Sequence record: CP121101.1
Strand: one strand, 5' to 3'
DNA: 64,000 nucleotides
From: a plasmid
Numbering within the stretch: the first letter of the stretch is position 1; the number at the start of each line of letters is the position of its first letter. The notes under the pieces were generated by a model. The model saw only the letters and a program-made list of their open reading frames with translations, did not search any database and was not told where the DNA came from. Of the stretch, positions 1,781 to 53,800 are shown one piece after another. A program made the position numbers and the translations under genes.

Positions 1781-2063
1781 GGAGTTCCCATAGCGGGAAA
1801 ACTCCCGTCAGGGTGGTGTTGGCCGATTAGGCCGAGTTGGGGTTGCGATCCGCGGATGCGGTGTGCCTTGAATCGCTGAGCACAAAACGCCACAAATAGT
1901 AGCGCTCTCGGAAATGTTCACCAAACACATCCGGCAGCACTCTGATCTGGATTTTTGCGTGACAAATACGACTCGACGAGTCACAAAGGCGAGGTTGGAA
2001 GCTACGGCCCAGAAAGGAGTCCGATTAGCCGTTCGGACATGAGCATACTATCTCAGGTGGAGA

Positions 2064-2654: not shown

Positions 2655-3050
2655 TTAGTAAAATGCGAACTCAAACATACCTTTATGTTTGCTGAGTATC
2701 TGCTTTACCGCCTCCTGGAGTTGTTGAACTGGTGCATCAGATATGCCGACAGACTGCAAATGCTCAAGCTGTTCGGGTAGACACAGATCAATAAAATTTC
2801 GACTATGGTCATCGATCATGTCAAAAGCGTTGTGCAGCGTAAGCAGCAACAACATTACGACCTGCCCTGCATCTATCCTTTTAGTTACCCCCCGAAAGGG
2901 AATATTGCCCGTCAAGTTGCATCCGTAAAGCACCCCTTCACCTGGCATTGTTGGTGTGATAAACACCCCCTCCTCCGCCAGTTCCGCCATGATGTTTTGC
3001 CACGTGGCGACGATTTGCTCTGGTTCGGTGATTTTTGCTCGAAAGTACAT
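2655..3050 (-). CDS. Hypothetical 131-aa protein, translationally coupled to the upstream AAA ATPase
   Basis: Its start lies 6 nt after the stop of ORF 3056-4081, with a GGAC/TAAG-type RBS. Confidence 0.5.
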   Translation of the reverse strand: MYFRAKITEPEQIVATWQNIMAELAEEGVFITPTMPGEGVLYGCNLTGNIPFRGVTKRIDAGQVVMLLLLTLHNAFDMIDDHSRNFIDLCLPEQLEHLQSVGISDAPVQQLQEAVKQILSKHKGMFEFAFY

Positions 3051-3055
3051 GGCAC

Positions 3056-4081
3056 TTAGTCCTCAACCCAAGCCTGGCCGAATACAGCTTTGCAAAGGTG
3101 CATAGCTGCTTCGTAAGTCGCCTCATCACCAACTAAGCGATGAGCATACGCCTCGTGGAAGGTTTTTTTGACCCTGTTACGGACTGATGTTGGACTGGTA
3201 CGAACCATCTCTCTCACCCAACGAAGCAGGCTGCGAATGGACAACGGTTTATCCATCGCTACCCCGTTCGTCATCGTGAGATCGTTTTGTTGAGACTTTT
3301 CTACAGCAGTATTGATATCGCGCATAACGCGGATCATATCTGGTAGCAAAGCCTCAATTGCATTGACGTGCGAGGGTGGAACTTTTTGTCCAAGCTCTGC
3401 TTCCCAATCAGTAACCTTGTTTGCGATTTTGTTCTTGCAAATCGTACTCATGTCATCGTCACTCAACTCGCTTGGGGCGAGTGGGATGAATCGGTCGATA
3501 AGCGCATCACTCAACCCAGTCGTGCCTCTGAACCCAGATAGCCCAGTGATACCACCGTTGTTGAAGGTGAACACACAACGGAACAGCTTGTGCGGTTCCA
3601 ACCATTCACCAGTTTCAGCCAGCTCAATGCCATGAGTCATGAGCTCATAGAAAGCCACCAGCTCCGCAGGTTGCATAGCATCAGCTTCGTTGAGCAAGAA
3701 TATCCCACCATTAAGCAGAGCTTCCCGCAACGGACCAGAAACGAACTCACCCGTAGCGGGGTTAACACGCCCGAGCAAATCCAGCTGGAAGCTGGTCTCC
3801 TGAGTGCCTTCGACTTGGTAAAGAGGCCACTGAGTTCGAGCTGCGAACTGGATGACTCCGGTTGTCTTGCCGGCACCATACCCGCCATAGGAAACGATGA
3901 TGTCTCCATCTGGATCGGCCATGAGCCTGCGCACATCATCAAGGAAGGTTGTTGTGAAAACGTGTGGTTTTCTTACCGGCACGCGGGGGTTCATTAGATG
4001 AGCATCACCATGGGGGCAACGAACCTTGATGCTTTCATCCAAGTCAAATTCGCTGCCAGAAATGAATTTGTGCTGAGTCAT
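3056..4081 (-). CDS. AAA+ ATPase, AAA_5 / MoxR-CobS-like
   Basis: Walker A is GYGAGKTTG and Walker B is IFLLNEADAM. The ORF-track start at 4243 would run into the upstream repeat element. I take the start as the ATG at 4081 (MTQHKF), which has a GGAG RBS. Confidence 0.65.
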   Translation of the reverse strand: MTQHKFISGSEFDLDESIKVRCPHGDAHLMNPRVPVRKPHVFTTTFLDDVRRLMADPDGDIIVSYGGYGAGKTTGVIQFAARTQWPLYQVEGTQETSFQLDLLGRVNPATGEFVSGPLREALLNGGIFLLNEADAMQPAELVAFYELMTHGIELAETGEWLEPHKLFRCVFTFNNGGITGLSGFRGTTGLSDALIDRFIPLAPSELSDDDMSTICKNKIANKVTDWEAELGQKVPPSHVNAIEALLPDMIRVMRDINTAVEKSQQNDLTMTNGVAMDKPLSIRSLLRWVREMVRTSPTSVRNRVKKTFHEAYAHRLVGDEATYEAAMHLCKAVFGQAWVED

Positions 4082-4132
4082 AAAATCTCCGAATACCTGC
4101 TTGAGCAGGTTGTGTTTGTGTTGGGCTGAATG

Positions 4133-4390
4133 CCCGGGTTGGTGTTGGTCGCGAGTGACACATTGCGGACCGAGTGCCATAGAGACAGCCAGGGCTGTTT
4201 CTGCATGTTCGCTGACGCCGGAGAGATACCGGTGAACGGACATGCAGAATCAGCCAACGAGGGCTTGAGTGATAGATCACGGGTGAGGAAGTCGGCAGAG
4301 CGCCGGGATGTTGGTGTTGGCGTCAAGCCGTTCGGCTCGCCCCCTGATATCGACGCCGGGAGCATGGACAGAATAGCCTTCGGCTGACCT
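4133..4390 (-). repeat. Copy 1 of a conserved structured intergenic element; the core is 4133-4285
   Basis: It is about 85% identical to four other copies. It holds an imperfect palindrome ttctgcatgt..acatgcagaa inside ggctg..cagcc. It lies between the terminator of gene 4428-5438 and the start of gene 3056-4081. Confidence 0.8.
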
Positions 4391-4427
4391 CGTGTAAAGA
4401 CGGCCACCCCTTACGGGGTGGCCTGGG

Positions 4428-5438
4428 TTACTTAACAAAAATCAACAGCAAGCATTTCAGCGGCCCCCTGACCGTTGTACTCGATCTGGCTGACTCTGAT
4501 GATGGTTCAGTTGATTGTTTTCTATACAGCTCTGGGTTAGGTAATGTGATATTGGGGTTACGCTTTTGAACAGCTTCTGTCCATTTCACATAATCGATAA
4601 CCCCTTGCCGCGGGGAGGAATGCAATCGCACACCAGCATACTCGGCCTTTACATGGTTACCCATCATGGATCGCAATGCTTTTTTCAGCTCTGCTTCCCG
4701 GGCCTTGGCCTCATCAATCCTCACTTTGATTGGAGACATGTCACGCCAGACTTGCTGCAGCTCTGCAGCAATTTGGGTCCATGCTTCTTGGTCTTGTTGG
4801 GTGCTCGGCTCGAAGTAGTCGAGCTCTGTAATCGGCGGGGCTTCATCCCGTTCGTACAGATCCCACCACCATTTTTGCCGCTCGATCAGCAGTTCGATTA
4901 GCTCCTCATCGCGTGTGATGCGAAACACTATGAGCTTGCGATCATAGGCGCGATAAAAGGCCAAATAGCCAATCTTAGCTCCTGTCGCCAGTAGCTGGTC
5001 TTGTACCTGGGGTAGGTAGCGTTGGTAGGCCTCCGAGTTCCGGCGTTCTTGCATTACTGACTCGAAGGTTTCCCATGCTGGCACTTTGAGCTCAACCGGA
5101 GAACCATCGGACATTAACCCATCCAACGAAACGCGAATGAAGGAATAAGTCTCGTGCTGCACACAGGTTGGTATCACTAGGTCAAATATGCCTTGCGACT
5201 CTAACCAGCGCTCGAACGCCTGTCGGGCCAGCGGCTCTTGTTCATTTCCTCTTCGCACAAAGAAGTTTTTGCTCAGGTCTGTGCCGGGTTTGCGCCCAGT
5301 TTTGACCATCCAAAATGCACGAGCACTTTCATGCGCGTATGGCCACTGGATTACAGAAGCAACACTAGATGCTCCTATGCCACCAGCTCGCCATTCATGC
5401 CATTCAGGGGTGCCCTGAACTAGGTCGACGTAGATCAT
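4428..5438 (-). CDS. YqaJ-like phage-type exonuclease (PD-(D/E)XK)
   Basis: The N-terminus GTPEWHEWRAGGIGASSVASVI is typical of the YqaJ viral recombinase domain. The ATG at 5438 has an AGAGGA RBS, and a terminator hairpin sits at 4402-4423. Confidence 0.65.
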   Translation of the reverse strand: MIYVDLVQGTPEWHEWRAGGIGASSVASVIQWPYAHESARAFWMVKTGRKPGTDLSKNFFVRRGNEQEPLARQAFERWLESQGIFDLVIPTCVQHETYSFIRVSLDGLMSDGSPVELKVPAWETFESVMQERRNSEAYQRYLPQVQDQLLATGAKIGYLAFYRAYDRKLIVFRITRDEELIELLIERQKWWWDLYERDEAPPITELDYFEPSTQQDQEAWTQIAAELQQVWRDMSPIKVRIDEAKAREAELKKALRSMMGNHVKAEYAGVRLHSSPRQGVIDYVKWTEAVQKRNPNITLPNPELYRKQSTEPSSESARSSTTVRGPLKCLLLIFVK

Positions 5439-5521
5439 GGGTGTGTCCTCTATCAATCAGCCGATGTCGAGCGCCAGGACGGTCACATTTCGATCGGACA
5501 TAGATTGCTTGTGGGCAGGAG

Positions 5522-5750
5522 CCCGGGTTGGTGTTGGTCGCGAGTGGCACATTGCGGACCGAGTGCCATAGAGACAGCCTTGGGCTGTTTCTGCATGTGC
5601 GCTGACGCCGGAGAAATACCGGTGAACGGACATGCAGAATCAGCCAACGAGGGCTTGGGTGATAGATCACGGGTGGGAGTGCCGGCGCAGGGCTGGGGGG
5701 TTAGTGTTGGTGCCAAGCCTTATGGCCTGCTCTTATAAGGCACCGAGAGC
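5522..5750 (-). repeat. Copy 2 of the conserved structured element; the core is 5522-5675
   Basis: The core is the same as copy 1. Its 3' extension (gttggtgcc..taggcaccgag hairpin) is shared with copies 4 and 5. Confidence 0.8.
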
Positions 5751-5898
5751 GTTTTTCCATTGTAGTCTATCCAGGTGTTCAATAGCTGTCCAGGCCAATT
5801 GGCAGTCATCCACTGGCCGATAAGGTCGTGCTCTATGGAGCCGGCAATTCTGCTGATCCTCTCGATGAACGGCTGACACAGGCATTGGCATGTGTGGG

Positions 5899-5925
5899 AA
5901 AAAAAGCCACCGAACTTCGGTGGCT
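5899..5925 (-). terminator. Rho-independent terminator after gene 5938-8509
   Basis: The hairpin agccaccgaagttcggtggct is followed by ttttttt on the minus strand. Confidence 0.6.
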
Positions 5926-5937
5926 TTAGGTTGTGGG

Positions 5938-8509
5938 TTACATGGCTAGCATAAGCTGATCACCTTCGACATAGCGCTTCAGTGGCCTCTTTGGCAACTT
6001 AACAACCACATCTGGCAAATGAGCCGTTACTAATCTCCGTCCTGTTTTGACCATCCGAACAAAGCTGGAATAGGTCGCGTTAGGGTAGGCTACGTCACTG
6101 ATAACTGATGAGGGAGAAACCCCCTCCCCTGTCTCCAACTGACGTTGCAACCGGACTAGCTCGGCATCAAGATGCATGCGCACCAATGTACCGACTTTGC
6201 CGCGGAGTTGCGATAAGCTGGTTGCAATCTGCCATTTCCATCGTTTTTCCAGTTGCAGCGATGCTGCATTGATCCCGCCGATTGTTAACCGAGCGACCCT
6301 CACAGCAATCACCGAGGAAAGCCTGCACTCCAGATCAAACCCAATACGTTTGGCTTGCTCTATTGCCTCAGCCTCCTGCTCTGCAAACAGGACATGCTCA
6401 ACATCGGCCCAAAAGGCTGTGTTGTTCTGACGATGGTAGTCCAGCGTGAAGCTGATCCAACATAGCCGGCGCATTTGTCTAGCCCGAGCCAAATGCTTGA
6501 GTTCGTGACGGCGATATTCTGCCTGGACGATTTGCCGATATTCAGGGGTACTCAGAATTTCCAGGTCGCTTCGGCAGTAGATGCCCATTAATGACTGGTC
6601 ACCAGACAACCCCATTTGCCGCATACGTTGACCACGCTGGGCCATCATATGCATATCTGCAACCTTGCTTGGCGTGATCTGCACCACACCAAAGCGCAAC
6701 AGATATAGCACTGCAGCTGTGTTCGTCATGTCACCAGCCTGGGCAGACTCTCTCATCCGGTCATACTCATCCCAGATGATCCAACTAGCAACATCACCAT
6801 CGATGGTCAGTTGCTTTGCTGTCTCTACCGGCCCGATAGTGCGATGTCCATCATGAGTGCGTATATCGGTGGCGGCCCTCCGATCGTTTTGGCCATCAAA
6901 GTAGGTGGCCGACAACATCGGATCGGACAGCCCATCGGTCAGCTCATCAGACCCCCATTTAAGACCGGGGATCTTAAGCCAAAACTCTTGCGGAATCTTG
7001 GTCGCCGGTACCGGAGTTATTAACTCATCCTCCGTTAGCAGCTCGATGTTTCCATCCTCCCAGACACTGCGATAAATCTCTATCGCTTGGAATGGCGTTG
7101 AGTGAAAGCAGTGGAAATCCCACAGCCAACTCACGTGTAACAACTGCTCAGGTGACACAATGCGGAATTGGGGCTTCGACATGCGCTGGTTGTAGTCGTT
7201 GTCCTCGACTTCACCAAGGAGCAATTTCATCTCCAGATCCTCTGCCCTTTGCTGCTCCACATAGTCCGCGGAGCAGCATAAACGCAGCAGTCGAGCCAAG
7301 AAGCTAGGTGAGAACACGTCAGGCTGTACCTTAATGAATCCCCCTGCGTAGATTGTCCTTCCGACAGGATGACGATCTTCCCAGGACCATTGCTTGACAC
7401 CTAAAAGCCGTTGGATGTTGTTAAGGTTCACCATGTAGGCGTAGCGGTCAACCAGGGTTCTGACCCCATTGACCTCATGATAAAGCATGTTCTCCATGCT
7501 TTTATCTGTCCCACCTCGCAGGCAAGTCCAGCATCCAGTTCTTGCGCCGCAGGCATCAGAGACCTTCTTCTCGCTAGCGCTCCAGATACATTCACCTGTT
7601 GCGTCTCGATACAGCTCAGCCAATTCCTTGTTGTTGGCTTGGTAGCTTGGTAATGGCAAATGCACTGATGCTTCGTTACCGCAACTCATTAGCAGTTCCC
7701 ACACATCCCCTTGCGACCAGTGCCGGATGGGGTATAGCTCCCACCCTGCACTTGTTTTGACCGGAGCTGTGGCCTGCCCCCCGCGCCTGGCGATATTGCC
7801 AGCTCGAGTTACACCCTCTGCATCACGAGAACCCAGCACTAGACAAACCTTCTCACGCATCTCTTTTGGCATGAGCTTGATCATCTGAGCCTTTACTCTG
7901 TTACCTGTTGTTACCTTCAGGTCGATGCTGCATTGTGGTGAAGAGCTAGTGACATACGTTGGGAGGCCTCGACCAGTCAAAACACGCCCTGTCCAGGACG
8001 ATGCAGAGACTTGGTTTGCCGACTACGATAGACAGTGGCAATCGCTCCTTGTCGATCAGCGCTTGTATCGCGGCAAGCTGCCGGTCGGCGAGATTGCGCA
8101 CTTCAGGGTTCTCGACCTGTGTATCTGTATGACTGATCCAGTGGTAGGCAGAGATCTCGTTGCCGCGACCTTCACGAACCAACCCTATCATCGCAAACAA
8201 CAGTAGATGAAGAGTACCCGTCGAATCCTTCCCCCCGCTGAGTGCAAGAGAAATGGTAAACCCATCGAGTAACGTGGCTCTGATGGCAAGTACAGCTTCA
8301 GTGATCATGCTGGACAGTGGCTGCCCGGTCGTATCACTAATCGCTGCCATCAGATCGTCATTGTTCTGCAAAGTCTCTCTAAGCTGATCCCACTTGTCGC
8401 CACGGTAAATTGTAGCCTGAGGCTGCGCGAAGGAGCGTTCCGCCATGCTGATTTCACAAGCTTGCTCATCAAGAAAATCGATGTGTTCGAAGAGATCGAA
8501 GTTGTCCAT
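5938..8509 (-). CDS. PAPS reductase / PP-loop ATP-pyrophosphatase family protein (DndC/IbrA-like), interrupted by a frameshift near 7946-7980
   Basis: The N-terminal ORF 7946-8509 carries the PP-loop SGGKDS. The C-terminal 680-aa ORF 5938-7980 overlaps it by about 35 nt in another frame. Confidence 0.5.
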
Positions 8510-8618
8510 GTGTTGTCCTTATTTGTTGCCCGAGTTGGGCGGGTTGGGGTTGGTCACTGGTGGCGCATTACAGACCAAGCGCCATTAATGACCCGAGTAC
8601 AAAGCTCGGGGGATTGAT

Positions 8619-9152
8619 TCAACTATCGAGATAGTTAGGGTTGTCGAGTAAAAACTGGTGCGGGTTTCCTTGATATCGCAATAGCAGCGAAGTCCATTTC
8701 ACACCTCGGACCCACGAAGGAAGGTCAGCTAGTTGATCAAGTCGCCCAGGAGCGTGAGTCCGATATCCTCTTTTGATGGCGTGAAGCACACATTCATCAA
8801 CAGAGCTGAACACTTCATGCGTGAAGGGACCATTGACATCGTAGAAGCTCACGCGATACCCCCGCCGAGCAGAAGGCTCGGGGAAGACTACGGCTAGAGC
8901 CCCTTTCTCATCGCCTAACTCCAGAGAGAGACCAGAGCCACCGTTGGCTGCAATCAGGCGCTGACCGATCTGCACCCGGATCGAGAGCAAATAGTCTTGC
9001 ATGACCTCCATGAGCCGACCGAAGCAGATTTCTTGATCTTCATGTTCACTGAATTTCTCCAGAAACTCGGTCATCGAAGCGCTCGGTTCTTGGCCAAGCA
9101 GATCGTCATTAAAGTGCGGGCACTTCCGCACATGTGCTTTTGTTAAGAGCAT
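8619..9152 (-). CDS. Hypothetical protein (177 aa)
   Basis: The ORF has an AAGGA RBS before the ATG at 9152 and lies downstream of repeat copy 3. Confidence 0.5.
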   Translation of the reverse strand: MLLTKAHVRKCPHFNDDLLGQEPSASMTEFLEKFSEHEDQEICFGRLMEVMQDYLLSIRVQIGQRLIAANGGSGLSLELGDEKGALAVVFPEPSARRGYRVSFYDVNGPFTHEVFSSVDECVLHAIKRGYRTHAPGRLDQLADLPSWVRGVKWTSLLLRYQGNPHQFLLDNPNYLDS

Positions 9153-9178
9153 CTGGTTGTTCCTTAGAGTTGCCTAGA

Positions 9179-9365
9179 GGCGGATTGTTGTTGGTCGCGA
9201 GTGGCACATTGCGGACCGAGTGCCATAGAGACAGCCAGGGCTGTTTCTGCATGTGCGCTGATGTAGGAAAGATACCGGTAAACGGACATGCAGAATCAGC
9301 CAACGAGGGCTTGAGTGATAGATCACAGGTAGGGCTCAGGGGGGATGATGTGTACCTGGCCGGCT
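9179..9365 (-). repeat. Copy 3 of the conserved structured element; the core is 9179-9331
   Basis: Core as in copies 1 and 2. Its 3' extension is divergent, and it abuts the stop of gene 9368-10138. Confidence 0.75.
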
Positions 9366-9367
9366 GT

Positions 9368-10138
9368 CTATCGGACGATAGGCTGTAAACGAAAAACCCC
9401 CAGCTTGGCCAGGGGTTCATCTTGAGAGTATTGCTCCCGGGTTGATTGAATCACGGTACCAGGGACAGCTGTTGAGATACCCCACCAACACCTTGGCCCT
9501 CGCTTGATGCGGTCAATTTCCTCCTGCATGATGTTGCGGATTTCCTTTGCTCGATTGACCTCTACCACCAAACTGAAATGGCACTGGTGCAGAGGAACGC
9601 CCAACAACGCAGCAAGCTTCACATAGCCGCGTTTATTGTCTATGCGCCACTGTTCACACAGTTGGTCATAAGCTTGATGCAATATGCCACGCCAGCGGCG
9701 AGCTTCACGGTCGGCCATCAATCCCAAAGGCCATCCATCACCTTTGTGATAGCCACAGCTGCGACCGCAGATGCAACGGTACATTGGGTAGCGATGGGCG
9801 TCCTGCCCTTTTCGGCTGACCTGCCGCCCACAATCACAGGTGATCGTGAAAATTGGGCAATGCGCAGACTTGCGGCCTGCATGGTAGTCACAGATGAGCT
9901 TGGCAATGTAAGTTGCCTTCACTCGCTGGTCCTCTTTAAAGCCCGATTCTGCAGCAAGCCATGTCACGGCTTCTTCGGGTAGGCTCCAATCTTCAGTCAG
10001 TCGATCGTATCGGCGGCAAAGCCACTCACCGATCACTGCATACAGAAGCACATCGACACCATCAATGCCGCTTTGCTGGCATTGATCTGACAGTAGGCGG
10101 CGCAGTGCTTTGGGGGGGAGATAGTTCACATTGGACAT
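9368..10138 (-). CDS. Cys-rich zinc-ribbon protein (hypothetical)
   Basis: It contains C..CDCGRQ..YRCICGRSCGYH cysteine clusters. The probable start is the ATG at 10138 (MSNVNY) with an AAGGA RBS. Confidence 0.5.
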   Translation of the reverse strand: MSNVNYLPPKALRRLLSDQCQQSGIDGVDVLLYAVIGEWLCRRYDRLTEDWSLPEEAVTWLAAESGFKEDQRVKATYIAKLICDYHAGRKSAHCPIFTITCDCGRQVSRKGQDAHRYPMYRCICGRSCGYHKGDGWPLGLMADREARRWRGILHQAYDQLCEQWRIDNKRGYVKLAALLGVPLHQCHFSLVVEVNRAKEIRNIMQEEIDRIKRGPRCWWGISTAVPGTVIQSTREQYSQDEPLAKLGVFRLQPIVR

Positions 10139-10170
10139 ATCAAGTTCCTTAATGGGGATTGCCTTGTTTG

Positions 10171-10405
10171 GCGGGTTGGGGTTGATCGCGAGTGGCACAT
10201 TGCAGACCGAGTACCATGAGACAGCCAGGGCTGTTTCTGCATGTGCGCTGGCGCCGGTGAATTGCCGGTGAGCGGACATGCAGAATCAGCCAACGAGGGC
10301 TTTGGTGATAGATCACAGGTGAGGAAGTCGGCAGAGGGCCGGCTGATTGGAAGTTGGTGCCGAGCCTGGCGGCTCGTCCACTAATAGGCACCGAGGACTC
10401 AGACA
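10171..10405 (-). repeat. Copy 4 of the conserved structured element; the core is 10171-10321
   Basis: The core is about 85% identical to the others. It shares the gaggaagtcggcagag extension with copy 1 and the gttggtgcc hairpin with copies 2 and 5. Confidence 0.8.
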
Positions 10406-10542
10406 GATTAACCTAGGGGCCCGGTAATTGGCAACTAAGTGGCCGTCCGGTTAGTTCAAAAAATACCAGTGGATAAGCTGCACAGTGGCAGTTTATCCAC
10501 TTGCCATAACATCAGGAGCCAGTGGCCGCTCCGGGTGAATCA

Positions 10543-10899
10543 TCAGCTACCGGAGGTATCGGTCGTTGAGTTCTGAGGAGTTTGGGCCGGTTGCTCTGGT
10601 ACTTGCTTCTTCTGCCGTCTCTTGTACGGTCGGCGCGGGCTTGTACCTTGTCGCCCTTGCGATGCCGCGACTAGATCCTGAATATCAATCCCGGAATCTG
10701 CCATTTTTTCGAACAGTTCGGTGATTTTGGCTGCCTTTAGCCTTTTCTCCTCTTCCAGTCTCAGCAGCTCAAGCTCTTCATTTTCGATGTATGTAGTCAG
10801 TAAGGTGTGCAGTTCTTTACGCTGTTCAAGCGTTCCAAGCTTCTTGGCTAGGGTCATAATGTTGCGCGGGGTATGGTCACGCTTGTTTTCTTGTTGCAT
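10543..10899 (-). CDS. Truncated H-NS paralogue (N-terminal oligomerisation domain plus linker; H-NST-like)
   Basis: The stretch LRLEEEKRLKAAKITELFEKMADSGIDIQDLV..SPRRPYKRRQ aligns with H-NS residues around ADGIDPNELL..KRAQRPAKY. The C-terminal TWTGQGRTP DNA-binding motif is absent. Confidence 0.55.
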   Translation of the reverse strand: MQQENKRDHTPRNIMTLAKKLGTLEQRKELHTLLTTYIENEELELLRLEEEKRLKAAKITELFEKMADSGIDIQDLVAASQGRQGTSPRRPYKRRQKKQVPEQPAQTPQNSTTDTSGS

Positions 10900-11030
10900 G
10901 CTTTCAGGCGTCCTTTAAGAAACCGTTATCCAGTCCTCAGCCCAGTGGTGACTCACGGGCCAGCAATCAAAACGCCTACATAATAGATGGACTGACCGCG
11001 GTATTGCTAGCCAGCCCGTCCTGCACCTAA

Positions 11031-11326
11031 TTAGGAGATTGACCCCAGGTGCACTTCTATCATTTCAAGATGCTTTCCTGAGGAGGCCAGCAAGTCTCGA
11101 GTAAAACGGAATTTGTGTTTGACTGCCGTAACAAGGTTTTTCTCACTTCCCCCCAATGCCATCCCGGTGCGATCAACGACCAGTACTTTCTGACTCTTGC
11201 GATCAACCAAGCACAGCCATGGAGCTGGAGGCGGATTCATGATGTCTGATATGCTGAAATGAATCTCCTCGACGAAATTTATTTTCTGCATAATGCGGAG
11301 ACGAACCTCTGTTGCCATAATACGCA
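11031..11326 (-). pseudogene. 3' fragment of a gene disrupted by the IS21-family insertion
   Basis: The ORF begins exactly at the IS boundary. Its partner fragment is 13942-14202. Confidence 0.5.
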
Positions 11327-11406
11327 TGCGTATTCCGGCGAAGTTGAACAGCCATTCCGGCCAACGTGAACACCCTGATCCTTAACGCGCTCACGTCACC
11401 CCGTTT

Positions 11407-12164
11407 CTAACTCGAGTGTTCAGATTGGGTCAACTCACTTCTCCTCTTTCTCATCGATTCTCCCTTCAGTGACAGCCGGTGAGCGTTGTGCATCAGCCGG
11501 TCCAGGATCGCATCTGCCAGAGTGTTGTCCCCCAAGCTCACGTACCACTCTTCCGTTGGCAGCTGACTGACCACGACCGTCGAGTATTTCCCGTACCGAT
11601 CATCCATGATCTCCAGCAGGGCGTTGCGCTGCTCGGCATTCACCGCTTCCAGTCCCCAGTCATCCAGGATCAGCAGCTCTATCCTTGCCAGTTGACCCAG
11701 CAGTCTGGCGTAACTGCCATCTACCTTGGCCTGGCTCAGCTCAAGTAGCAGACGCGGCAGCCGGTAGTAACGAGTGCTGTGCCCCTGCTGACAGGCTTGG
11801 TAGCCCAGCGCACAGGCTAGGTAGGTTTTTCCGCAGCCACAGGGGCCGGTAATGAGCAGGTTCTGGCCCCGGCGCAGCCACTCTCCTTGGGCCAGGTTTG
11901 CCACCTGTGACCGCTCCAGGTTGCGTGCAGACTGGTAGTCCACCTCTTGCACCGTGGCCTGGAGTTTGAGCCTCGCCTGCTTGACCAGCCGAGCTTGTTT
12001 ACGCTGCTCCCCCGGCTCAGTTGTTCGTGTTCGACCAGCAGGCTTAGCCGCTCGATGAAGGGCAGCCCTTCGTAGGTACTTGCCTGTTCCAGTTGTTGTT
12101 GCACGGCATCCGCCATGCCAGTCAGTTTCAGGTGTCTCAAGCGGGTCAGCGTTTGTTGGGTCAT
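11407..12164 (-). CDS. istB: IS21-family IstB helper ATPase, apparently frameshifted near 12005-12020
   Basis: The N-terminus MTQQTLTRLRHLKLTGM and LLVEHEQL are in one frame. RKQARLVKQ...GPCGCGKTYLA and DDWG (Walker A and B) are in another. The frame switch falls at a cggggga run. Confidence 0.6.
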
Positions 12165-12178
12165 GGGACGTATCCTCT

Positions 12179-13720
12179 TTAGTGGAAGCTCTGGGGGCCG
12201 CGGATGTTCTCGTGCTCTTGCGGCAGTTCTGGATAACTGAGCGGACTTGCGGGCAGTTGGTCGCGGCCACTGGTCAGCACCGACTTGAGCTGCTTGAGCC
12301 GCACCAGTCCTTCCCGGTTGGCCAGCTGGCAACAGGCTTCGACTCGTGATGGCGGATACTCCCGGCTAAGACTCAGCAGTCCCAGGCAGAGTCGGTATGC
12401 CTGCTCGGCATGGGCTTTCTCTGCCAGCCGTTCGCTAACCCAGCACAAGGTGCCCGGTCCGATGTCGGCAGCCCACTGCTTAAGACGCCCTGGCGTCCAG
12501 CGTTGCTGCTTGCTGTGACGTTCCGGCATGTGCTCAGGGAGTGTGCTCATCCCCGGGATGGTTTTACGCGGATGGCTCGCGACCAGCTGTTGCTGGTGAT
12601 AGACCTGAAGCAGGGTATCGCCCGCATGGAGCTCCAGTTGCTGACCCACATACTGGTGCGGCACCGAGTAATGGTGCTGCTCATAGCTGACGTGATAGTC
12701 GATGTTGACCTTGACCGTTTTGATGGCGACATAGCGATAGGGATGCACCGGTAGTGACCCCAGTGCCGGGCGGTCCAACTGCTCAAACGCCTCGCGTCGG
12801 TTACCGGGCAGCTGCTTGAACGGGCGCTCGTTGAGCTCATTCAACAAAGCCCGGATGCACTGGTTTAGCTCGGCAAGCGAGAAGAAGGTCTGATGGCGTA
12901 GACGAGCCAGGATCCAGCGCTCGACGATCTGCACACCCACCTCGGCCTTGGCTTTGTCCTTAGGCTTGTAAGGGCGAGCTGGCATCACCGCCACCTGATA
13001 GTGCTCGGCCAACTGCTGGTAGCTGGGGTTGAGCTCGGGATCGTATCGGCAAGCCTTGCTGACACCGCTCTTGAGGTTGTCGGGGATCAGCAGTACCGGT
13101 GTCCCGCCGAAAAACTCAAAGGCACGGACATGGCTTTGCAGCCAGTCCGGCAGTGACTGGGACCAGGTGGCCTCGGCAAAGGTGTAGTTGGACGCACCGA
13201 GCACGGCGACAAAGACTTGTGCCTGACGGACCTCACCCGTAGTCGGCGACACGATGGGCACCGTGGGCCCGCAGTAGTCGATAAAGAGCTTTTCCCCCGC
13301 CTTGTGGATCTGGCGCATGGAGCGCTTTTGCAACTGACACCAGGACTTGTAACGGTCACAGAACTGGGAGTAGCTGTAACAGCTATTGGGATAGCGCTGG
13401 GTGTACTCCTCCCAGAGCAGCTGTTTGGAGACCCCCTTGCGCTTGAGCTCCTGATGGACAGAGGGCCAATCCGGCACAACATGGCGGGCCGAGATGGTGG
13501 TATCGGCCTGCGGATAGAACAGGGCAGCCAGTCGGCCATCATCAAGCTCGGTAGGTAAGGGCCAGGTAAGGCCGAGCGCCTGGGCACTTTTGAGGAGTTT
13601 CTGGATGGAGCCGACACTGACCTTGGTACAGATACTGATTTGGCGAACAGAGAGGTCAGCTTCCAGCCGCAGTCGCAGCACTTCACGAATTTTACGCATT
13701 GCAATCCTCTTGGCAGACAT
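12179..13720 (-). CDS. istA: IS21-family transposase IstA (513 aa)
   Basis: It has an N-terminal HTH and a DDE transposase core. Its stop overlaps the istB start, as is usual in IS21. Confidence 0.75.
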   Translation of the reverse strand: MSAKRIAMRKIREVLRLRLEADLSVRQISICTKVSVGSIQKLLKSAQALGLTWPLPTELDDGRLAALFYPQADTTISARHVVPDWPSVHQELKRKGVSKQLLWEEYTQRYPNSCYSYSQFCDRYKSWCQLQKRSMRQIHKAGEKLFIDYCGPTVPIVSPTTGEVRQAQVFVAVLGASNYTFAEATWSQSLPDWLQSHVRAFEFFGGTPVLLIPDNLKSGVSKACRYDPELNPSYQQLAEHYQVAVMPARPYKPKDKAKAEVGVQIVERWILARLRHQTFFSLAELNQCIRALLNELNERPFKQLPGNRREAFEQLDRPALGSLPVHPYRYVAIKTVKVNIDYHVSYEQHHYSVPHQYVGQQLELHAGDTLLQVYHQQQLVASHPRKTIPGMSTLPEHMPERHSKQQRWTPGRLKQWAADIGPGTLCWVSERLAEKAHAEQAYRLCLGLLSLSREYPPSRVEACCQLANREGLVRLKQLKSVLTSGRDQLPASPLSYPELPQEHENIRGPQSFH

Positions 13721-13941
13721 AGGCTCTTCCCTGGCAAAAGGGAGAGCGTATCAAAGGTTTTTAAATCAATGCGTTAAGGATGATTCCGGTGAATGTGAAC
13801 AGTGATTCCGGGATGTTGAACACTGTTTCCGGAAAGGAGGGGCGAAGTGTTCAGGTTGAACCGGAATGAGCGTTCACATTGGTCCGGAAATGGTGTTCAC
13901 GTTGAATCGGAATTGGTGTTCATGATCGGCCGGAATATGCA

Positions 13942-14202
13942 ACGCAACCATGCATCATTGAACTCCCTTACATTTTTGGCGCAAAAATAAGGGAAGTCCG
14001 GAGATAATATGGTTCCATACTTTCTAAAGTCCGGGGTCCAGCTTGGAGCCTGCATTGTGCCAAGTAATGTCTGCGCGTATGCAGCATGGGTTTCCGACGC
14101 GAATAGTGAGACGCGGTTTTCCAGCCACGTTTCAACATCTTCAGGTTGAACCTCTTGGACCATAAATAAATCGTTGTTAAAGGATTTTTGAAGAAGGTAC
14201 AT
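13942..14202 (-). pseudogene. 5' fragment of the IS-disrupted gene
   Basis: The ORF 13897-14202 reads into the IS end. The intact gene would have been about 185 aa. Confidence 0.5.
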
Positions 14203-14592
14203 ATCTAATCTCTTAGCTTCAGATGCCGTTACACAGGTCTAATAACGGCGTAGACCCAGCCATACGCGCATTGGCCATCACAGGTGCAGTAAAGCCACTG
14301 GGCTTGTGCGCGGCATACAAACATTCCTGAGACAGGCTGATATAACTGTAATCCTTATAATTAAAAATCGAATATCAGCATTCCTCTGCGCACAGTTTAT
14401 GGCGACAGCGGATAATGCAACCCGACCTTCCTCAGCCATAGGAAATGGCTCAGGAAGGGCTGGTTTGCCCTCTGACGAAAGAAAATAATATGTTATTTCC
14501 TCGGTGTAGCTGACCGGGAATAATAATCTGTGAACGTACTCAGCGTGATAAGTGAAATAAGGGGGCCATAAGCCCCCTGGTTTTCAGGTTAT

Positions 14593-15236
14593 TTAGTATA
14601 GGTAATTGTTTGGCCGGCTGAGTTGTCGCTCATAATGGGCGTAGGTGGCTGTAGGGTTGAAATCCCAACCGTCATCCTCGTCCGTCATGGCCATCGAGAC
14701 AACCTCATCTAGCCAGCCCTGCTTTTCAAGCCACAAGAGCAGTTCATGTTCCTTGTGGCTCAGTTTTGAACACCGTCGTAGATAGCTCCGCCGAGTGACA
14801 ACCTGCCGGAAAATCCCGGCAAGCATACGTTCTGGGCTGACGTCTAACATGATGCAGCAATGTCTAAAGCTGAAGGGTGTCAGTTCTTGTTTGAACAACC
14901 ACTCGATCCCCAACTCCCTCGATTCAGTACCGCACTTCGGTGAAATCAGCCCATAAATGGCATCATTCAGTACAACACCGCACAGAGTTGCTATACCGTC
15001 ATCGGACCAAACAAGCGTGCCCTCTTCAGGCATATCTTGCAGATCCGGCTGGTCTTCCTGGAACAGCTCCGGGAACAGCAACGGTAATGGCATTGCGCTG
15101 TTGTTGACCAGCGACACAGGATCACTGTCACCAGCTTTAGATTTCGTTGAGCTTTTTGGCTTTATTGCCCGTTCTGAGGGGATGAATAGCACATCCTTAT
15201 CAGAATCAAACATGTCTCGTTGCCAAAGTATCATGG
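14593..15236 (-). CDS. Hypothetical protein
   Basis: The start is probably MILWQRDMF. The upstream in-frame extension overlaps the ccaacaccaacccgg motif. A terminator lies at 14561-14590. Confidence 0.45.
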
Positions 15237-15404
15237 TGCCCTCCATAGAGAAGGAGGGCCACCCGTGGGGCAGCCTCTCCCCTACGGTACTTGGTGATGG
15301 GCTTTCGCCCGGGTTGGTGTTGGCCACTGGCGCGATTTGCAGGCCTATTCGCGTGATCGCCCGAAAGCAATTCGCTGATAGTCATCTATCTTCGAATCGC
15401 TCTT

Positions 15405-15435
15405 TCGAGAATGAGAAAGAGGGCCAAAGGCCCTC
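15405..15435 (-). terminator. Terminator after the bet-like gene
   Basis: The hairpin gagggcctttggccctc is followed by a T-rich tail on the minus strand. Confidence 0.5.
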
Positions 15436-15487
15436 ATCCCGAGGTTACAAAGGTCTTAAACCGCGGCGAACCACGAGATCTTCATCC

Positions 15488-49337: not shown

Positions 49338-49366
49338 GATTATGCCTCGTTGAATTTGGTTTTAAT

Positions 49367-49600
49367 CCCGGGTTGGTGTTGGTCACGAGTGACACATTGC
49401 GGACCGAGTGCCATAAGACAGCCTTGGGCTGTTTCTGCATGTACGCTGACGCCGGAGAATAACCGGTGAACGGACATGCAGAATCAGCCTACGAGGGCTT
49501 GGGTGATGGATCACAGGTGGAAGTACCTGCAGAGTGCAGGTAGAGTTGATGTTGGTGCCAGGCCGGGCGGCCTGTCCCCACGTAGGCACCGAGGACTTAT
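49367..49600 (-). repeat. Copy 5 of the conserved structured element
   Basis: The core 49367-49521 is about 85% identical to copies 1-4. Its 3' hairpin gtgccaggccgggcggcctgtcc..taggcaccgag is shared with copies 2 and 4. Confidence 0.8.
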
Positions 49601-49686
49601 ACAGAATAACCTAGCGGACTAATATCTGGCAATCTGGTACAGATTTAAAAATTGATGGCCATGCATAAATGGCATGGCCATCACAT

Positions 49687-50088
49687 TCAGATGAGGAAAT
49701 CGTCCAGCGAGCGCCCTTGTGCTATCTGCTCAGCCAAGTGCTTCGGGGTGCGCCCCTGACCTGTCCAAGTCTGTTCGTTTCCATCAACAACATAACGATA
49801 CTTGGGCGGTCTCGGAGCGCGTTTTTTCTTTTCACTAGAGTTTACGCCTGAAGCATCCCCGACAAGTTCTTTGGGGTCGATGCCGGCCTTGGCCAGCAAC
49901 TCCTGGAACTCTGCCAACTTACTCATTCGTTCTGATTGAGCAGCCTTTTCTTTGTCTACTTGAGTCTTACGTTCCAAGTACACCAACTCGAATTTTTCGT
50001 GGGCCTCTTGTACTTGTTCAAAGGGCAGATCTCGAAGTGCTGCCCGGAGGCTTCGAATATTCAACAGCATTTTCAAAAATTCTTGCAT
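49687..50088 (-). CDS. hns: H-NS family nucleoid-associated protein (full length)
   Basis: The C-terminus has the TWTGQGRTPK DNA-binding motif. An N-terminal coiled coil is present, as is the GIDPKEL linker. Confidence 0.75.
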   Translation of the reverse strand: MQEFLKMLLNIRSLRAALRDLPFEQVQEAHEKFELVYLERKTQVDKEKAAQSERMSKLAEFQELLAKAGIDPKELVGDASGVNSSEKKKRAPRPPKYRYVVDGNEQTWTGQGRTPKHLAEQIAQGRSLDDFLI

Positions 50089-51481: not shown

Positions 51482-51769
51482 ATTTCCCTACCATTCCTTC
51501 ATACATAAGTAATTACCGATAGCACTACGCTTTTATCGTCCATGCTCTCTTCGATATAATCTGCATGAAAATCCGAGCTATCTTACAAATAAAACTCCCG
51601 ATCCTCATGGGGACCTACGAGTATGCTTGGTGCAGAACTATCAGTGCTGATTCTCCCGCTATTTTGTCTAATGCAAGGCTGTCATCGACTCAACACCGAG
51701 TTATTCAGGGCACCGGCCTGTTAGTGCTCCAAGCATCCCACGGGGGCCTTGTTCCACTTGTAATACCGG

Positions 51770-53760: not shown

Positions 53761-53767
53761 AATAAAA

Positions 53768-53800
53768 ATCCGCCTCAAGGGGCGGATTAGGTTTTTCCAA
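53768..53800. terminator. Bidirectional rho-independent terminator
   Basis: The hairpin aatccgcctcaaggggcggatt is flanked by T-runs on both strands. Confidence 0.6.

What the first reader, a model, noticed from the sequence alone, without database searches (positions are those of the whole stretch)
4133..10405. Five copies of a conserved hairpin-rich element, each immediately upstream of a minus-strand cargo gene
Copies lie at 4133-4390, 5522-5750, 9179-9365, 10171-10405 and 49367-49600. They share a core of about 150 nt that is roughly 85% identical: gggttggtgttggtcgcgagtggcacattgcggaccgagtgccatagagacagccagggctgtttctgcatgtgcgctgacgccggagaaataccggtgaacggacatgcagaatcagccaacgagggcttgagtgatagatcacgggtg. 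Two kinds of 3' extension follow the core. One is gaggaagtcggcagag... and the other is a gttggtgcc...taggcaccgag hairpin. All five copies point the same way. Each sits between the terminator of the previous gene and the RBS of the next minus-strand gene (AAA ATPase operon, YqaJ, 177-aa ORF, Zn-ribbon protein, and the small ORF that leads into the pil region). The core contains a long imperfect palindrome, ggctg-t-ttctgcatgt ... acatgcagaa-t-cagcc, with an inner ccgg/ccgg stem and mismatch bubbles. ORFs that overlap the repeats are conserved only because the DNA is conserved, so I regard the element as non-coding. It looks like a portable promoter/leader or cis-regulatory RNA that is acquired together with cargo genes. 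Its position next to ssb, anti-restriction-like genes and recombinases, with every gene on one strand, is also what one expects for ssDNA promoters of the F Frpo type, which fire from the transferred strand when it enters a recipient.
Basis: partly seen in the sequence, partly recalled or inferred. Interest (0 to 1): 0.85.

Follow-up and report, generated by a model that had tools for sequence, protein, structure and literature searches.

The report
Repeated promoter-plus-leader cassette on Aeromonas plasmid
A family of Aeromonas resistance plasmids places the same ordinary-looking promoter and hairpin-rich untranslated leader in front of many unrelated genes; this is most likely a shared, undescribed RNA-level expression control, not a single-stranded-DNA promoter of the F-plasmid type.

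Summary
Five co-oriented copies lie at the stated places. The window also holds a partial copy (8520-8626) and a diverged copy (15290-15381). The window is about 99.6% identical to Aeromonas plasmid pAER-f909 (MOBH relaxase, ICE-type T4SS).

Each full copy reads: terminator of the upstream gene, sigma70-like promoter (TTGCCA/TTTACA, 17-18 nt, TAWYCT), a 5' hairpin starting at about +1, a long imperfect hairpin (H3), three small hairpins (hpX, hp2, hp3) separated by C/A-rich tracts, then SD and ATG.

The same architecture recurs in relatives whose neighbouring YqaJ protein is only 54-75% identical. There the stems covary: H3b 8 of 10 pairs, hp2 6 of 6 pairs. The hp2 loop GGUCUGNAA stays constant. 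No Rfam family matches.

I read it as a propagated promoter plus structured 5'-UTR cassette, that is, a candidate new cis-regulatory RNA.

The Frpo reading fails every test I could run. There is no homology. The promoter hexamers lie outside the hairpins. No 300-nt window reaches the -75 kcal/mol screen. One copy heads the pilus operon. Function on single-stranded DNA is not excluded (about 10%).

The mechanism downstream of transcription (processing, stability, translation) is inferred, not shown.

The parts
4083..4398 (-). Copy c1, ahead of the AAA-ATPase operon (ATG at 4081). Promoter TTTACA-17-TATTCT 4370-4398; hairpin A 4316-4357; H1 4269-4280; long hairpin H3 4193-4255; hpX 4185-4198; hp2 4156-4179; C/A tract 4135-4150.
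   Evidence: (208 bits)
5439..5792 (-). Copy c2, ahead of the YqaJ-family nuclease gene (ATG 5438). Promoter TGGACA-17-TAGACT 5764-5792; hairpin A 5706-5744; H3 5583-5645; hpX 5574-5588; hp2 5545-5568; C/A tract 5524-5539.
   Evidence: (207 bits)
9153..9335 (-). Copy c3, ahead of the 177-aa ORF (ATG 9152). It has no promoter and no hairpin A, and follows directly on the terminator of the upstream gene (9394-9418). H3 9239-9301; hpX 9231-9244; hp2 9202-9225; C/A tract 9181-9196.
   Evidence: (189 bits)
10139..10434 (-). Copy c4, ahead of the DUF3268 zinc-finger gene (ATG 10138). Promoter TTGCCA (10429-10434), 18 nt, TAATCT (10405-10410); hairpin A 10353-10392; H1 10305-10316; H3 10229-10291; hpX 10221-10234; hp2 10193-10216; C/A tract 10172-10187; hp3 10161-10172; SD AAGGA about 10146-10150.
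   Evidence: (190 bits)
49339..49632 (-). Copy c5, ahead of the 89-aa ORF that leads into the type IV pilus (pil) genes (ATG 49338). Promoter TTGCCA (49627-49632), 18 nt, TATTCT (49603-49608); hairpin A 49551-49590; H3 49427-49489; hpX 49418-49432; hp2 49390-49413; C/A tract 49369-49384.
   Evidence: (195 bits)
8510..8626 (-). Short-form copy (3' module only) filling the 110-nt gap between the 177-aa ORF and the PAPS-reductase-like gene (ATG 8509). Its own hpX CCCGAG/CUCGGG 8592-8610; hp2 GGCGC/GCGCC 8561-8584; C/A tract 8540-8555; hp3 GCCC/GGGC 8528-8540.
   Evidence: D10; 38 bits, E 8e-11
15290..15381 (-). Diverged short-form copy ahead of the gene that precedes ssb. hp2 with a different stem (GCGAU/AUCGC) but the same loop motif GGCCUGCAA 15332-15360; C/A tract 15310-15325; hp3 GGGC-GAAA-GCCC 15299-15310.
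   Evidence: (23 bits, E 1e-5)
1803..1918 (-). Possible further, very diverged 3' module ahead of the DUF3150 gene: small hairpin, GCAACCCCAACUCG, hairpin GGCC-UAAUC-GGCC, AACACCACCC. The covariance model does not detect it.
   Evidence: Weak: the nhmmer hit is to a model that contained this sequence.

Best explanation
The element is a duplicated expression cassette: an ordinary double-stranded sigma70-type promoter followed by a structured 5' untranslated leader of about 260-290 nt that runs up to the ribosome-binding site of whatever gene follows.

In order, the cassette contains:
- the terminator of the upstream gene;
- a -35 hexamer (TTGCCA or TTTACA), a 17-18 nt spacer, and a -10 hexamer (TAWYCT);
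- the predicted transcription start about 7 nt further on, at the foot of a 5'-terminal hairpin (hairpin A);
- a small hairpin HB;
- a long imperfect hairpin H3 of about 23 bp with two conserved 1x1 mismatches;
- a 3' module that every member shares: hairpin hpX, hairpin hp2 displaying the conserved loop GGUCUGNAA, the unpaired tract CCAACNCCAACCCG, a 3-4 bp G/C hairpin hp3, a second C/A-rich tract, then SD and ATG.

The 5' arm of hpX overlaps the 3' base of H3, so those two helices exclude each other.

Shown here: the repeats, their orientation and fixed position relative to genes, the conserved promoter hexamers, and covariation that proves the helices are selected in a single-stranded nucleic acid.

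Inferred: the leaders act on the mRNA, putting recombination and maintenance genes and the mating-pilus operon under one post-transcriptional control.
- The 5' hairpin would protect the transcript's 5' end.
- H3 has the size and shape of an RNase III substrate, so it may be a processing or stability site. That would also serve the promoter-less, intercistronic copies.
- The G-poor C/A tracts around hp3 would give an unstructured ribosome landing site.
- The invariant hp2 loop would be the contact for a still unknown protein or RNA partner.
For: Repeat family and coordinates.

Orientation and position: all 38 copies in the loci examined are co-oriented with their genes. Every well-preserved copy has an ORF starting 26-120 nt after the core (26-88 nt in all but one).

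Promoter:
- Hexamers TTGnnn/TTTACA, 17-18 nt, TAWYCT end 12-13 nt before the hairpin-A stem in five paralogous positions.
- The tool's independent scan finds two of them.
- The same terminator, TTTACA, 17/18 nt, TATTCT, hairpin A arrangement recurs in relatives with 54-75% YqaJ identity.

Distant copies: the covariance model finds at least 6 full copies in Aeromonas sp. Y311-2. It also finds copies in three metagenome lineages, one with 42% GC.

Covariation on 37 distinct rows:
- H3b: 8 of 10 pairs show two or more Watson-Crick types.
- hp2: 6 of 6 pairs.
- H3a: 4 of 5 pairs.
- hp3 flips between GGGC/GCCC, GCC/GGC, GCCC/GGGC and GGCC/GGCC.
- Hairpin A changes GGUGCC/GGCACC to GGCGUC/GACGCC.

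Strand:
- In unambiguous alignments, one-sided changes that keep pairing are G-U on the sense strand at 8 positions against A.C at 2.
- A U.G pair is conserved in 22 of 27 rows and is C-G in the other 5.

Constraint:
- Orthologous cores are 92-97% identical, against 83-90% at third codon positions of most neighbouring genes and 85-87% in non-repeat intergenic DNA.
- Paralogues (90.8%) are almost as alike as orthologues (93.7%).

Coupling to a gene: the copy in pAER-f909 that lost its downstream gene has decayed (31-43 bits). Its orthologue in pS121-1a, which keeps a 111-aa gene, is intact (143-178 bits).

Intercistronic member: a short-form copy fills a 110-nt intercistronic gap that has no promoter. 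That placement fits action on RNA.
Against: - No transcript data exist, so the start site, any processing and any regulatory effect are unverified.
- The strand argument is only suggestive. Over all 37 rows, G-U exceeds A.C by cells (58 to 12) but only 14 to 9 by positions. In H3b of the distant copies A.C is the commoner. The model-based alignment leans towards sense-strand pairs.
- Both strands fold better than shuffles: z = -2.7 for sense RNA, -3.1 for antisense RNA, -3.5 for template-strand DNA.
- Copy c3 and similar copies have no recognisable promoter.
- The plasmid annotation names no RNA-binding protein. No complementary RNA partner was found.
- Within the close plasmid family H3 never covaries. 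Its conservation there could equally reflect a DNA-level site or gene conversion.
Confidence: 0.6

Rival explanations
1. A single-stranded-DNA element of the transferred strand: an Frpo-like ssDNA promoter or a priming signal (ssi). It would belong to a new sequence class and fire or prime when the strand enters a recipient.
For: - Several hairpins are selected in a single-stranded nucleic acid.
- All copies lie on one strand, near ssb and recombination genes.
- The template strand folds well as DNA (z = -3.5), and the copies are among the most structured 300-nt windows.
- ssDNA promoter classes without homology to Frpo exist (PMC12672017).
- Promoter-less copies such as c3 need some source of transcription.
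- The plasmid encodes a Toprim-domain, primase-like protein.
Against: - No similarity to Frpo/ssi-bearing replicons.
- The only promoter-like hexamers lie outside the hairpins and are predicted unpaired on the template strand.
- The would-be non-template arm of H3 has no conserved -35/-10: CAGAAT becomes GGGAAA or CAGAAA in relatives.
- No window reaches the -75 kcal/mol screen; the minimum is -68.5, and the fold is several small hairpins, not one large stem-loop.
- Wobble changes lean towards the sense strand, not the template strand.
- One copy drives the pil operon, a donor function.
- A copy decays when its gene is lost.
- oriT and the identity of the transferred strand are unknown; traI lies about 60 kb away.
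Confidence: 0.1
2. A DNA-level control region like the CUP elements of IncN plasmids or the Reg576 operators of p576. The conserved core would be an array of binding sites for a plasmid repressor or nucleoid protein that blocks transcription from the upstream promoter until the plasmid is established.
For: - Repeated promoter-bearing upstream elements bound by one repressor are known for plasmid establishment regulons.
- H3 and the GTGATCTATCAC palindrome are sequence-invariant within the close family, with no covariation.
- H-NS-like genes sit directly upstream of two copies.
Against: - In distant relatives the stems change sequence while keeping pairing, and H1 is lost. That is not expected for duplex operators.
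- The arms of H3 are 15-28 nt apart.
- The most conserved parts are loop and unpaired tracts next to the SD.
- No ArdK-type or other repressor is named in the annotation.
- No similarity to IncN plasmids.
Confidence: 0.12
3. A selfish or neutral repeat (MITE-like element or recombination scar) with no function for the neighbouring genes.
For: It is multi-copy, confined to one plasmid lineage, and carries an internal palindrome. Paralogues are nearly as similar as orthologues, which is compatible with gene conversion.
Against: - No terminal inverted repeats or target duplications.
- One orientation only, and syntenic positions in all plasmids.
- Conserved beyond synonymous sites.
- Architecture and covariation persist at 54% protein identity.
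Confidence: 0.05
4. A gene for a trans-acting small RNA or antisense RNA transcribed from the opposite (plus) strand.
For: On the plus strand, hp3 followed by GGGTTGGTGTTGG scores as terminator-like.
Against: No promoter-like site on the plus strand inside any copy. The T-tract is poor. The element's limits coincide with a sense promoter and an SD.
Confidence: 0.03

Closest known systems
Frpo / ssi single-stranded-DNA promoters of F, ColIb-P9 and pESBL (classes 1-3)
   Same: Several related, hairpin-forming, non-coding elements lie in one orientation, each upstream of an operon, in a region with ssb on a conjugative plasmid.
   Different: - No sequence similarity.
- Frpo-type elements are one large stem-loop that rebuilds -35/-10 boxes in its stem. 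Here the hexamers lie in unpaired DNA upstream of several small hairpins.
- It fails the -75 kcal/mol screen.
- It also heads the pilus operon.
- Leading-region position is unproven.
CUP (conserved upstream) elements of IncN plasmid pKM101/R46 (Delver & Belogurov 1997, cited in PMC6289460)
   Same: A repeated upstream element carrying a promoter precedes several unrelated genes of a conjugative plasmid and forms one regulon.
   Different: CUP works as duplex DNA through the ArdK repressor and a 13-nt consensus. Here most of the conserved part is transcribed, is structured and covaries. No ArdK-like regulator is annotated, and there is no sequence similarity.
Reg576-controlled promoters of Bacillus plasmid p576 (PMC6294495)
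   Same: Establishment genes sit in separate transcription units that share conserved upstream features. The promoters are duplex, not ssDNA promoters.
   Different: The shared feature there is a dual heptamer operator at the promoter. Here it is a leader of about 270 nt downstream of the promoter.
RNase III processing hairpins between the early genes of phage T7 (R0.3-R1.3). This comparison rests on my own knowledge.
   Same: Related imperfect hairpins of about two helical turns with internal mismatches lie in front of successive genes of a mobile element. All point one way, and some are intercistronic.
   Different: Cleavage is untested here. The elements usually carry their own promoter and an additional conserved 3' module.
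Structured cis-regulatory 5'-UTR RNA motifs found by comparative genomics (Rfam 'Cis-reg' class, e.g. the DUF3268 motif)
   Same: Location between promoter and start codon, covarying helices, conserved loops, association with mobile-element genes. One copy even precedes a DUF3268 gene.
   Different: It matches no Rfam 15 model, even at E<=1-5. It is present in up to about 9 copies per replicon ahead of unrelated genes, which argues against a ligand-specific riboswitch.

Membership tests
Frpo/ssi ssDNA promoters | Sequence similarity to known Frpo/ssi elements (the criterion of Samuel et al. 2024: BLAST E<1e-6) | tested here: not met
   blastn 'distant' against PLSDB hits only 16 plasmids of this family. 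There is no match in 5,426 complete E. coli genomes with their plasmids at E<=0.01.
Frpo/ssi ssDNA promoters | One large stem-loop on the template strand whose stem rebuilds -35 and -10 boxes | tested here: not met
   The promoter-like hexamers lie upstream of hairpin A in a stretch that is predicted to be largely unpaired on the template strand. The H3 arm has no conserved hexamers.
Frpo/ssi ssDNA promoters | Passes the folding screen used to find classes 1-3 (300-nt window, DNA parameters, below -75 kcal/mol) | tested here: not met
   Template strand 3000-16500: minimum -68.5, mean -44.5 kcal/mol. The windows placed over the full copies give -49 to -59 kcal/mol.
Frpo/ssi ssDNA promoters | Lies in the leading region next to oriT, on the strand where the transferred strand is the template | tested here: inconclusive
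   oriT is unknown. The MOBH traI gene is at 22.5 kb of the record, about 60 kb beyond the block. Nearly the whole backbone is on one strand, so orientation says little.
Frpo/ssi ssDNA promoters | Transcription or priming from single-stranded but not duplex DNA | not testable with these tools
   Needs in vitro transcription or transconjugant RNA-seq.
CUP elements (IncN) | Repeated upstream element that contains a promoter | tested here: met
   Positionally conserved sigma70-like hexamers.
CUP elements (IncN) | ArdK repressor and its 13-nt consensus site; similarity to CUP sequences | tested here: not met
   No IncN plasmid is hit. No ardK-like product is named in the full plasmid annotation. 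ArdK itself was not searched by profile.
Known RNA families (riboswitches, leaders, sRNAs; Rfam 15) | Score at or near a family's gathering threshold | tested here: not met
   There are no hits at gathering score in the window. No hit overlaps the copies at E<=5. There is none in four relatives at E<=1.
Integron attC sites | End-to-end imperfect palindrome with RYYYAAC...GTTRRRY core sites, next to an integron integrase | tested here: not met
   The only inverted repeats found are internal to the element or pair with flanking sequence. The two ends of the element carry a direct sub-repeat (hairpin followed by ACCAACACYAACCC), not an inverted one. The plasmid's intI1 lies in a separate resistance region.
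MITE / Correia-type elements | Terminal inverted repeats, target-site duplication, insertion in either orientation | tested here: not met
   No TIR or TSD. All 38 copies have one orientation and syntenic positions.
Structured cis-regulatory 5'-UTR RNA | Lies between a promoter and the start codon, on the sense strand | tested here: met
Structured cis-regulatory 5'-UTR RNA | Helices supported by compensatory changes across diverged members | tested here: met
   H3b 8 of 10, hp2 6 of 6 and H3a 4 of 5 pairs show two or more Watson-Crick types in 37 rows. hp3 and hairpin A also show compensatory changes.
Structured cis-regulatory 5'-UTR RNA | The structure forms on the transcribed (sense) strand rather than its complement | tested here: inconclusive
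   One-sided changes that keep pairing: 8 G-U against 2 A.C positions in close copies, and a conserved U.G pair. Over all rows the count is only 14 against 9 positions.
Structured cis-regulatory 5'-UTR RNA | It is transcribed and alters expression of the downstream gene | not testable with these tools
   No expression data.
RNase III processing site | Imperfect RNA hairpin of about 20 bp or more in a 5'-UTR or between cistrons | tested here: met
   H3 has 5+10+4+4 pairs with 1x1 mismatches. Cleavage itself is not testable here.

The most novel reading that the evidence does not exclude
The hairpin set (H3 plus the hpX-hp2-hp3 module) works on the transferred single strand. It would be a new, Frpo-unrelated class of ssDNA promoter or priming signal, specific to MOBH / ICE-type (MPF_G) plasmids, that gives early expression of recombination and maintenance genes in the recipient.
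Probability: 0.1. Interest if true: 0.8.

Novelty: new variant of a known kind. Interest (0 to 1): 0.45.

Why it matters
These plasmids (pAER-f909, pS121-1a and relatives) carry carbapenemase, tmexCD-toprJ, integron and mercury-resistance cargo in Aeromonas from clinical, sewage and aquaculture sources.

The shared promoter-leader cassette defines a regulon of eight or more units. It links recombination genes (YqaJ, AAA-ATPase/DUF3150/VWA), a PAPS-reductase-like gene, the ssb neighbourhood and the mating pilus. That gives one handle on how this unstudied backbone controls its maintenance and transfer genes.

It is also a well-supported candidate for a new structured RNA family with an invariant loop, suitable for Rfam and for a search for its binding partner.

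It shows that 'repeated hairpin element upstream of every gene near ssb' does not by itself indicate an ssDNA promoter.

In practice, the element causes wrong start-codon calls in RefSeq, where ORFs are extended into the repeat.

Tried and rejected
- **Exact-pattern scans.** GTDB species representatives gave no true hit (the Aeromonas lusitana match is chance). Viral contigs gave none. Metagenome hits belong to the same plasmid family.
- **Protein-guided search in PLSDB with the AAA ATPase.** The next relatives are 30% identical or less. The closest, a Photobacterium plasmid with the same gene module, has no repeated leader and no covariance-model hit.
- **Coding potential.** Rejected: 1-nt indels and only non-synonymous differences.
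- **CRP or FNR site at GTGATCTATCAC.** Half-site spacing is wrong (by inspection), and the palindrome is lost in Aeromonas sp. Y311-2.
- **Promoter inside the core or on the antisense strand.** None found.
- **Conserved anti-SD pairing.** Not consistent between copies (by inspection).
- **Long-range pairing GUUGG/CCAAC.** Not compensated.
- **Search for an RNA complementary to the hp2 loop or C/A tract.** Only chance matches.
- **Folding energy as a strand discriminator.** Uninformative: the G/T-rich complement always folds better.
- **Rfam DUF3268 motif, STAXI and other mobile-element motifs.** No hits.
- **nut/boxB-like reading of hp3.** Rejected because its loop is not conserved.
- **pAsa4 literature.** Nothing on these repeats; pAER-f909 is mentioned in one in-silico resistance survey only.

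Full report
**1. What the window is.**
The 261-nt copy at 5500-5760 matches Aeromonas sp. ASNIH4 plasmid pAER-f909 (NZ_CP026221.1, 171 kb) at 100%. The plasmid has a MOBH relaxase, an ICE-type T4SS and an R64-like pil cluster. The whole window aligns to it in reverse orientation at 99.5-99.8%. The differences are an extra IS21-family insertion, one inverted segment and some indels. Genes on the window's minus strand are plus-strand genes of the record.

**2.
- The repeat finder reports a five-member family of 150 nt at 4135, 5525, 9181, 10171 and 49369. A 52-nt family adds a sixth site at 8534-8585.
- A profile HMM and a covariance model built from the copies recover the five at 166-208 bits.
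- They also recover a partial copy at 8520-8626 (38 bits) and a diverged one at 15290-15381 (23 bits).
- pAER-f909 has a seventh full copy and a decayed copy outside the window.
- Core identity among paralogues averages 90.8%.
- All copies point the same way as the gene that follows them.
- Every well-preserved copy is followed 26-120 nt later (26-88 nt in all but one) by the start of an ORF. Those ORFs are unrelated to one another: an AAA ATPase, a YqaJ nuclease, a 177-aa protein, a DUF3268 zinc-finger protein, an 89-aa protein ahead of the pil genes, a 183-aa protein and a PAPS-reductase-like protein.
- ORFs overlapping the repeat are artefacts. Copies differ by single-base indels, and the differences between two 'uORF' versions are all non-synonymous.

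**3. Anatomy, read in the direction of the genes.**
1. The upstream gene ends in a hairpin plus T-run.
2. A sigma70-like promoter follows.
   - c1 has TTTACA-17-TATTCT.
   - c2 has TGGACA-17-TAGACT.
   - c4 has TTGCCA-18-TAATCT.
   - c5 has TTGCCA-18-TATTCT.
   - Two out-of-window positions have TTGCTC-17-TATCCT and TTGATG-17-TAATCT.
   - The -10 hexamer ends 12-13 nt before the hairpin-A stem in five of the six positions, and 19-23 nt before it in c2.
3. A transcript starting about 7 nt after the -10 hexamer would begin at the foot of a 5'-terminal hairpin.
4. Next come a small hairpin HB, a 4-bp hairpin H1, and the long hairpin H3. H3 has 5+10+4+4 pairs with two 1x1 mismatches and a U.G pair.
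5. Then comes a 3' module. It consists of hpX (ACAGCC/GGCUGU, whose 5' arm is the 3' base of H3) and hp2 (6 bp, 12-nt loop). These are followed by the tract GACCAACACCAACCCG, hp3 (3-4 G/C pairs), more C/A-rich sequence, SD and ATG.
6. Copy c3 lacks the promoter and hairpin A and follows the upstream terminator directly.
7. The copy at 8520-8626 is only the 3' module. It fills a 110-nt intercistronic gap.

**4. Distribution.**
- In PLSDB the element occurs only in 16 records: 15 Aeromonas plasmids and one Enterobacter co-integrate.
- There is no true hit in one genome per species of GTDB, none in IMG/VR and none in 5,426 E. coli genomes.
- Searching with the neighbouring YqaJ protein found more distant relatives of the same backbone.
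  - Aeromonas sp. Y311-2 has 75% protein identity.
  - Metagenome contigs have 54-64% identity, and one of them has only 42% GC.
- The covariance model finds at least six full copies and some partial ones in the first. It finds two to three per contig in the others. They lie upstream of the same or of other genes.
- In these relatives the whole arrangement is kept: terminator, TTTACA-17/18-TATTCT-like promoter, 5' hairpin, H3, hpX, hp2, C/A tract, hp3, AACACCAAC, SD.
- A Photobacterium plasmid with the same gene module at 30% identity has no such repeat.

**5. The helices are real.**
- Within the close family nearly nothing covaries. 98.6% of cells are paired, and 8 pairs change on one side only.
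- With the distant copies added (37 distinct rows), two or more Watson-Crick pair types appear at 8 of 10 pairs of H3b, at 4 of 5 pairs of H3a and at 6 of 6 pairs of hp2.
- For example, UUCUGCAUGU/ACAUGCAGAA becomes UUCCCUUUGC/GUAAAGGGAA or UUCUGUUUG/CAAACAGAA.
- The hp2 stem takes at least six forms (GGCAC, GGCGC, CUGCG, GGUGA, CGCG, GCGAU). Its loop keeps GGUCUGNAA throughout.
- hp3 flips between GGGC/GCCC, GCC/GGC, GCCC/GGGC and GGCC/GGCC.
- Hairpin A shows two double changes.
- hpX shows ACAGCC/GGCUGU changing to AUAGCC/GGCUAU.
- So the element is selected as a folded single strand. The most constant parts are an exposed loop and unpaired C/A tracts next to the ribosome-binding site.

**6. 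Is it under selection?**
- Orthologous cores are 92-97% identical. Third codon positions of most flanking genes are 83-90% identical, and non-repeat intergenic DNA is 85-87%.
- Paralogues are almost as similar as orthologues. That points to strong constraint, gene conversion, or both.
- Three paralogues of one plasmid share a private loop change.
- In pAER-f909 the copy whose downstream 111-aa gene has been deleted has decayed. Its orthologue in pS121-1a, which still has the gene, is intact.

**7. RNA or single-stranded DNA, and which strand?**
- Folding energy does not decide, because both strands beat their shuffles.
- In unambiguous alignments, one-sided changes that preserve pairing are G-U on the sense strand at 8 positions and A.C (that is, G-T on the template strand) at 2.
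- A U.G pair is conserved, being U.G in 22 rows and C-G in 5.
- Over all rows the excess is 58 to 12 cells but only 14 to 9 positions. The model-fitted alignment also favours sense pairs. I therefore call this suggestive only.
- The stronger arguments for action on the mRNA are positional.
  - A conserved duplex-type promoter lies upstream.
  - The element has a fixed 3' end next to the SD.
  - One member is intercistronic.
  - A copy decayed after its gene was lost.

**8. The Frpo idea tested.**
Frpo-type promoters are defined by three things. They show similarity to known Frpo/ssi, or they form one large stem-loop that rebuilds -35/-10 boxes. They also lie in the leading region. Here:
- There is no similarity.
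- The hexamers lie outside the hairpins, in DNA predicted to be largely unpaired on the template strand.
- The H3 arm that would be the non-template strand has no conserved hexamers.
- I repeated the published screen (300-nt window, 10-nt step, DNA parameters, threshold -75 kcal/mol) on the template strand from 3000 to 16500. The minimum was -68.5 and the mean -44.5 kcal/mol. Windows over the copies gave -49 to -59.
- One copy heads the pil operon.
- The relaxase gene is about 60 kb away, oriT is unknown, and almost the whole backbone is on one strand. 'Leading region' and 'every gene on one strand' therefore carry little weight.

None of this excludes some other role on single-stranded DNA, such as priming. 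I give that about 10%.

**9. What it most likely does.**
- *Shown:* a propagated promoter-plus-leader cassette with selected secondary structure.
- *Inferred:* transcription from the TAWYCT promoters gives mRNAs with a protective 5' hairpin.
- *Inferred:* H3 has the length and mismatch pattern of RNase III substrates. It competes with hpX for the CAGCC segment, so it is a plausible processing or switch element. That would also make sense of the promoter-less copies reached by read-through.
- *Inferred:* the G-poor C/A tracts around hp3 keep the region before the SD open.
- *Inferred:* the invariant hp2 loop is the likely contact for a common trans-acting factor.

The result would be coordinated post-transcriptional control of eight or more units. 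No candidate partner was found.

**10. Comparison with known systems.**
The closest functional analogues are repeated upstream control elements of plasmid establishment regulons.
- **Frpo/ssi** act on ssDNA.
- **CUP/ArdK of IncN** act on duplex DNA.
- **Reg576 operators** act on duplex DNA.

The present element shares their logic of one module and many genes. It differs in being mainly a transcribed, covarying leader.

It matches no Rfam family, including the DUF3268 motif, although one copy precedes a DUF3268 gene. It is not an attC site or a MITE.

I file it as a new variant of a known kind: a candidate new cis-regulatory RNA family embedded in a propagated promoter cassette. Interest is moderate. 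The structure is solid and undescribed, but its range is one plasmid clade and its mechanism is still inferred.

Noticed in passing
window 11326-13942: An IS21-family insertion is present in the window but absent from pAER-f909. There is an IstB Pfam hit at 11410-12270 and an IstA-sized ORF at 12179-13720.
   Followed up: partly
window 37845-38811: This segment is inverted relative to pAER-f909. It lies inside the prepilin/pilV part of the pil cluster and may be a shufflon-type inversion.
   Followed up: no
window 5938-8509: The PAPS-reductase-like gene is split into two frames in the window (7946-8509 and 5938-7980). In pAER-f909 and relatives it is a single ORF of 856-859 aa. This is either a frameshift or a sequencing error.
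   Followed up: partly
window 49690-50088 and 10546-10899: There are two H-NS-like genes: one full-length (133 aa) and one with only the N-terminal oligomerisation domain (118 aa, like H-NS antagonists). Each lies directly upstream of a leader copy (c5 and c4).
   Followed up: partly
window 15669-16064 and 51700-53800: A 36-nt tandem repeat array lies inside a 407-aa ORF. A large set of 90-nt degenerate repeats lies in another region. Both look like repetitive coding sequence.
   Followed up: no
window 3056-4243 and 9368-10279; L026 4501-5328: An ATG inside hairpin H3 opens reading frames that run in frame into the downstream genes. In the pS121-1a record (L026) the zinc-finger gene's annotated start lies inside the repeat, and some ORF calls in the window extend into it in the same way. 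These are likely mis-annotated N-termini.
   Followed up: yes
L024 1090-1246, 47403-47559, 48793-48947: Three paralogous copies in one A. caviae plasmid share a private change in the H3 apical loop (UAUUUCG). Their orthologues elsewhere lack it. This indicates gene conversion or co-adaptation among copies.
   Followed up: partly
L001 36050-36194 (pAER-f909, outside the window) against L026 25053-25225: A decayed copy has no downstream gene in pAER-f909. The intact copy in pS121-1a still precedes a 111-aa gene.
   Followed up: yes
hp2 loops, e.g. window 10200-10208: From memory, the conserved loop GGUCUGCAA resembles a conserved 16S rRNA segment (GAGUCUGCAACUC). I did not verify this with the tools, and it may be coincidence.
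   Followed up: no
L029 1335-11532 (pAER-f909 145-155 kb, outside the window): About ten consecutive hypothetical genes of 280-300 aa lie on one strand between the integrase region and umuDC. They may be a paralogue array in what could be the true leading region.
   Followed up: no
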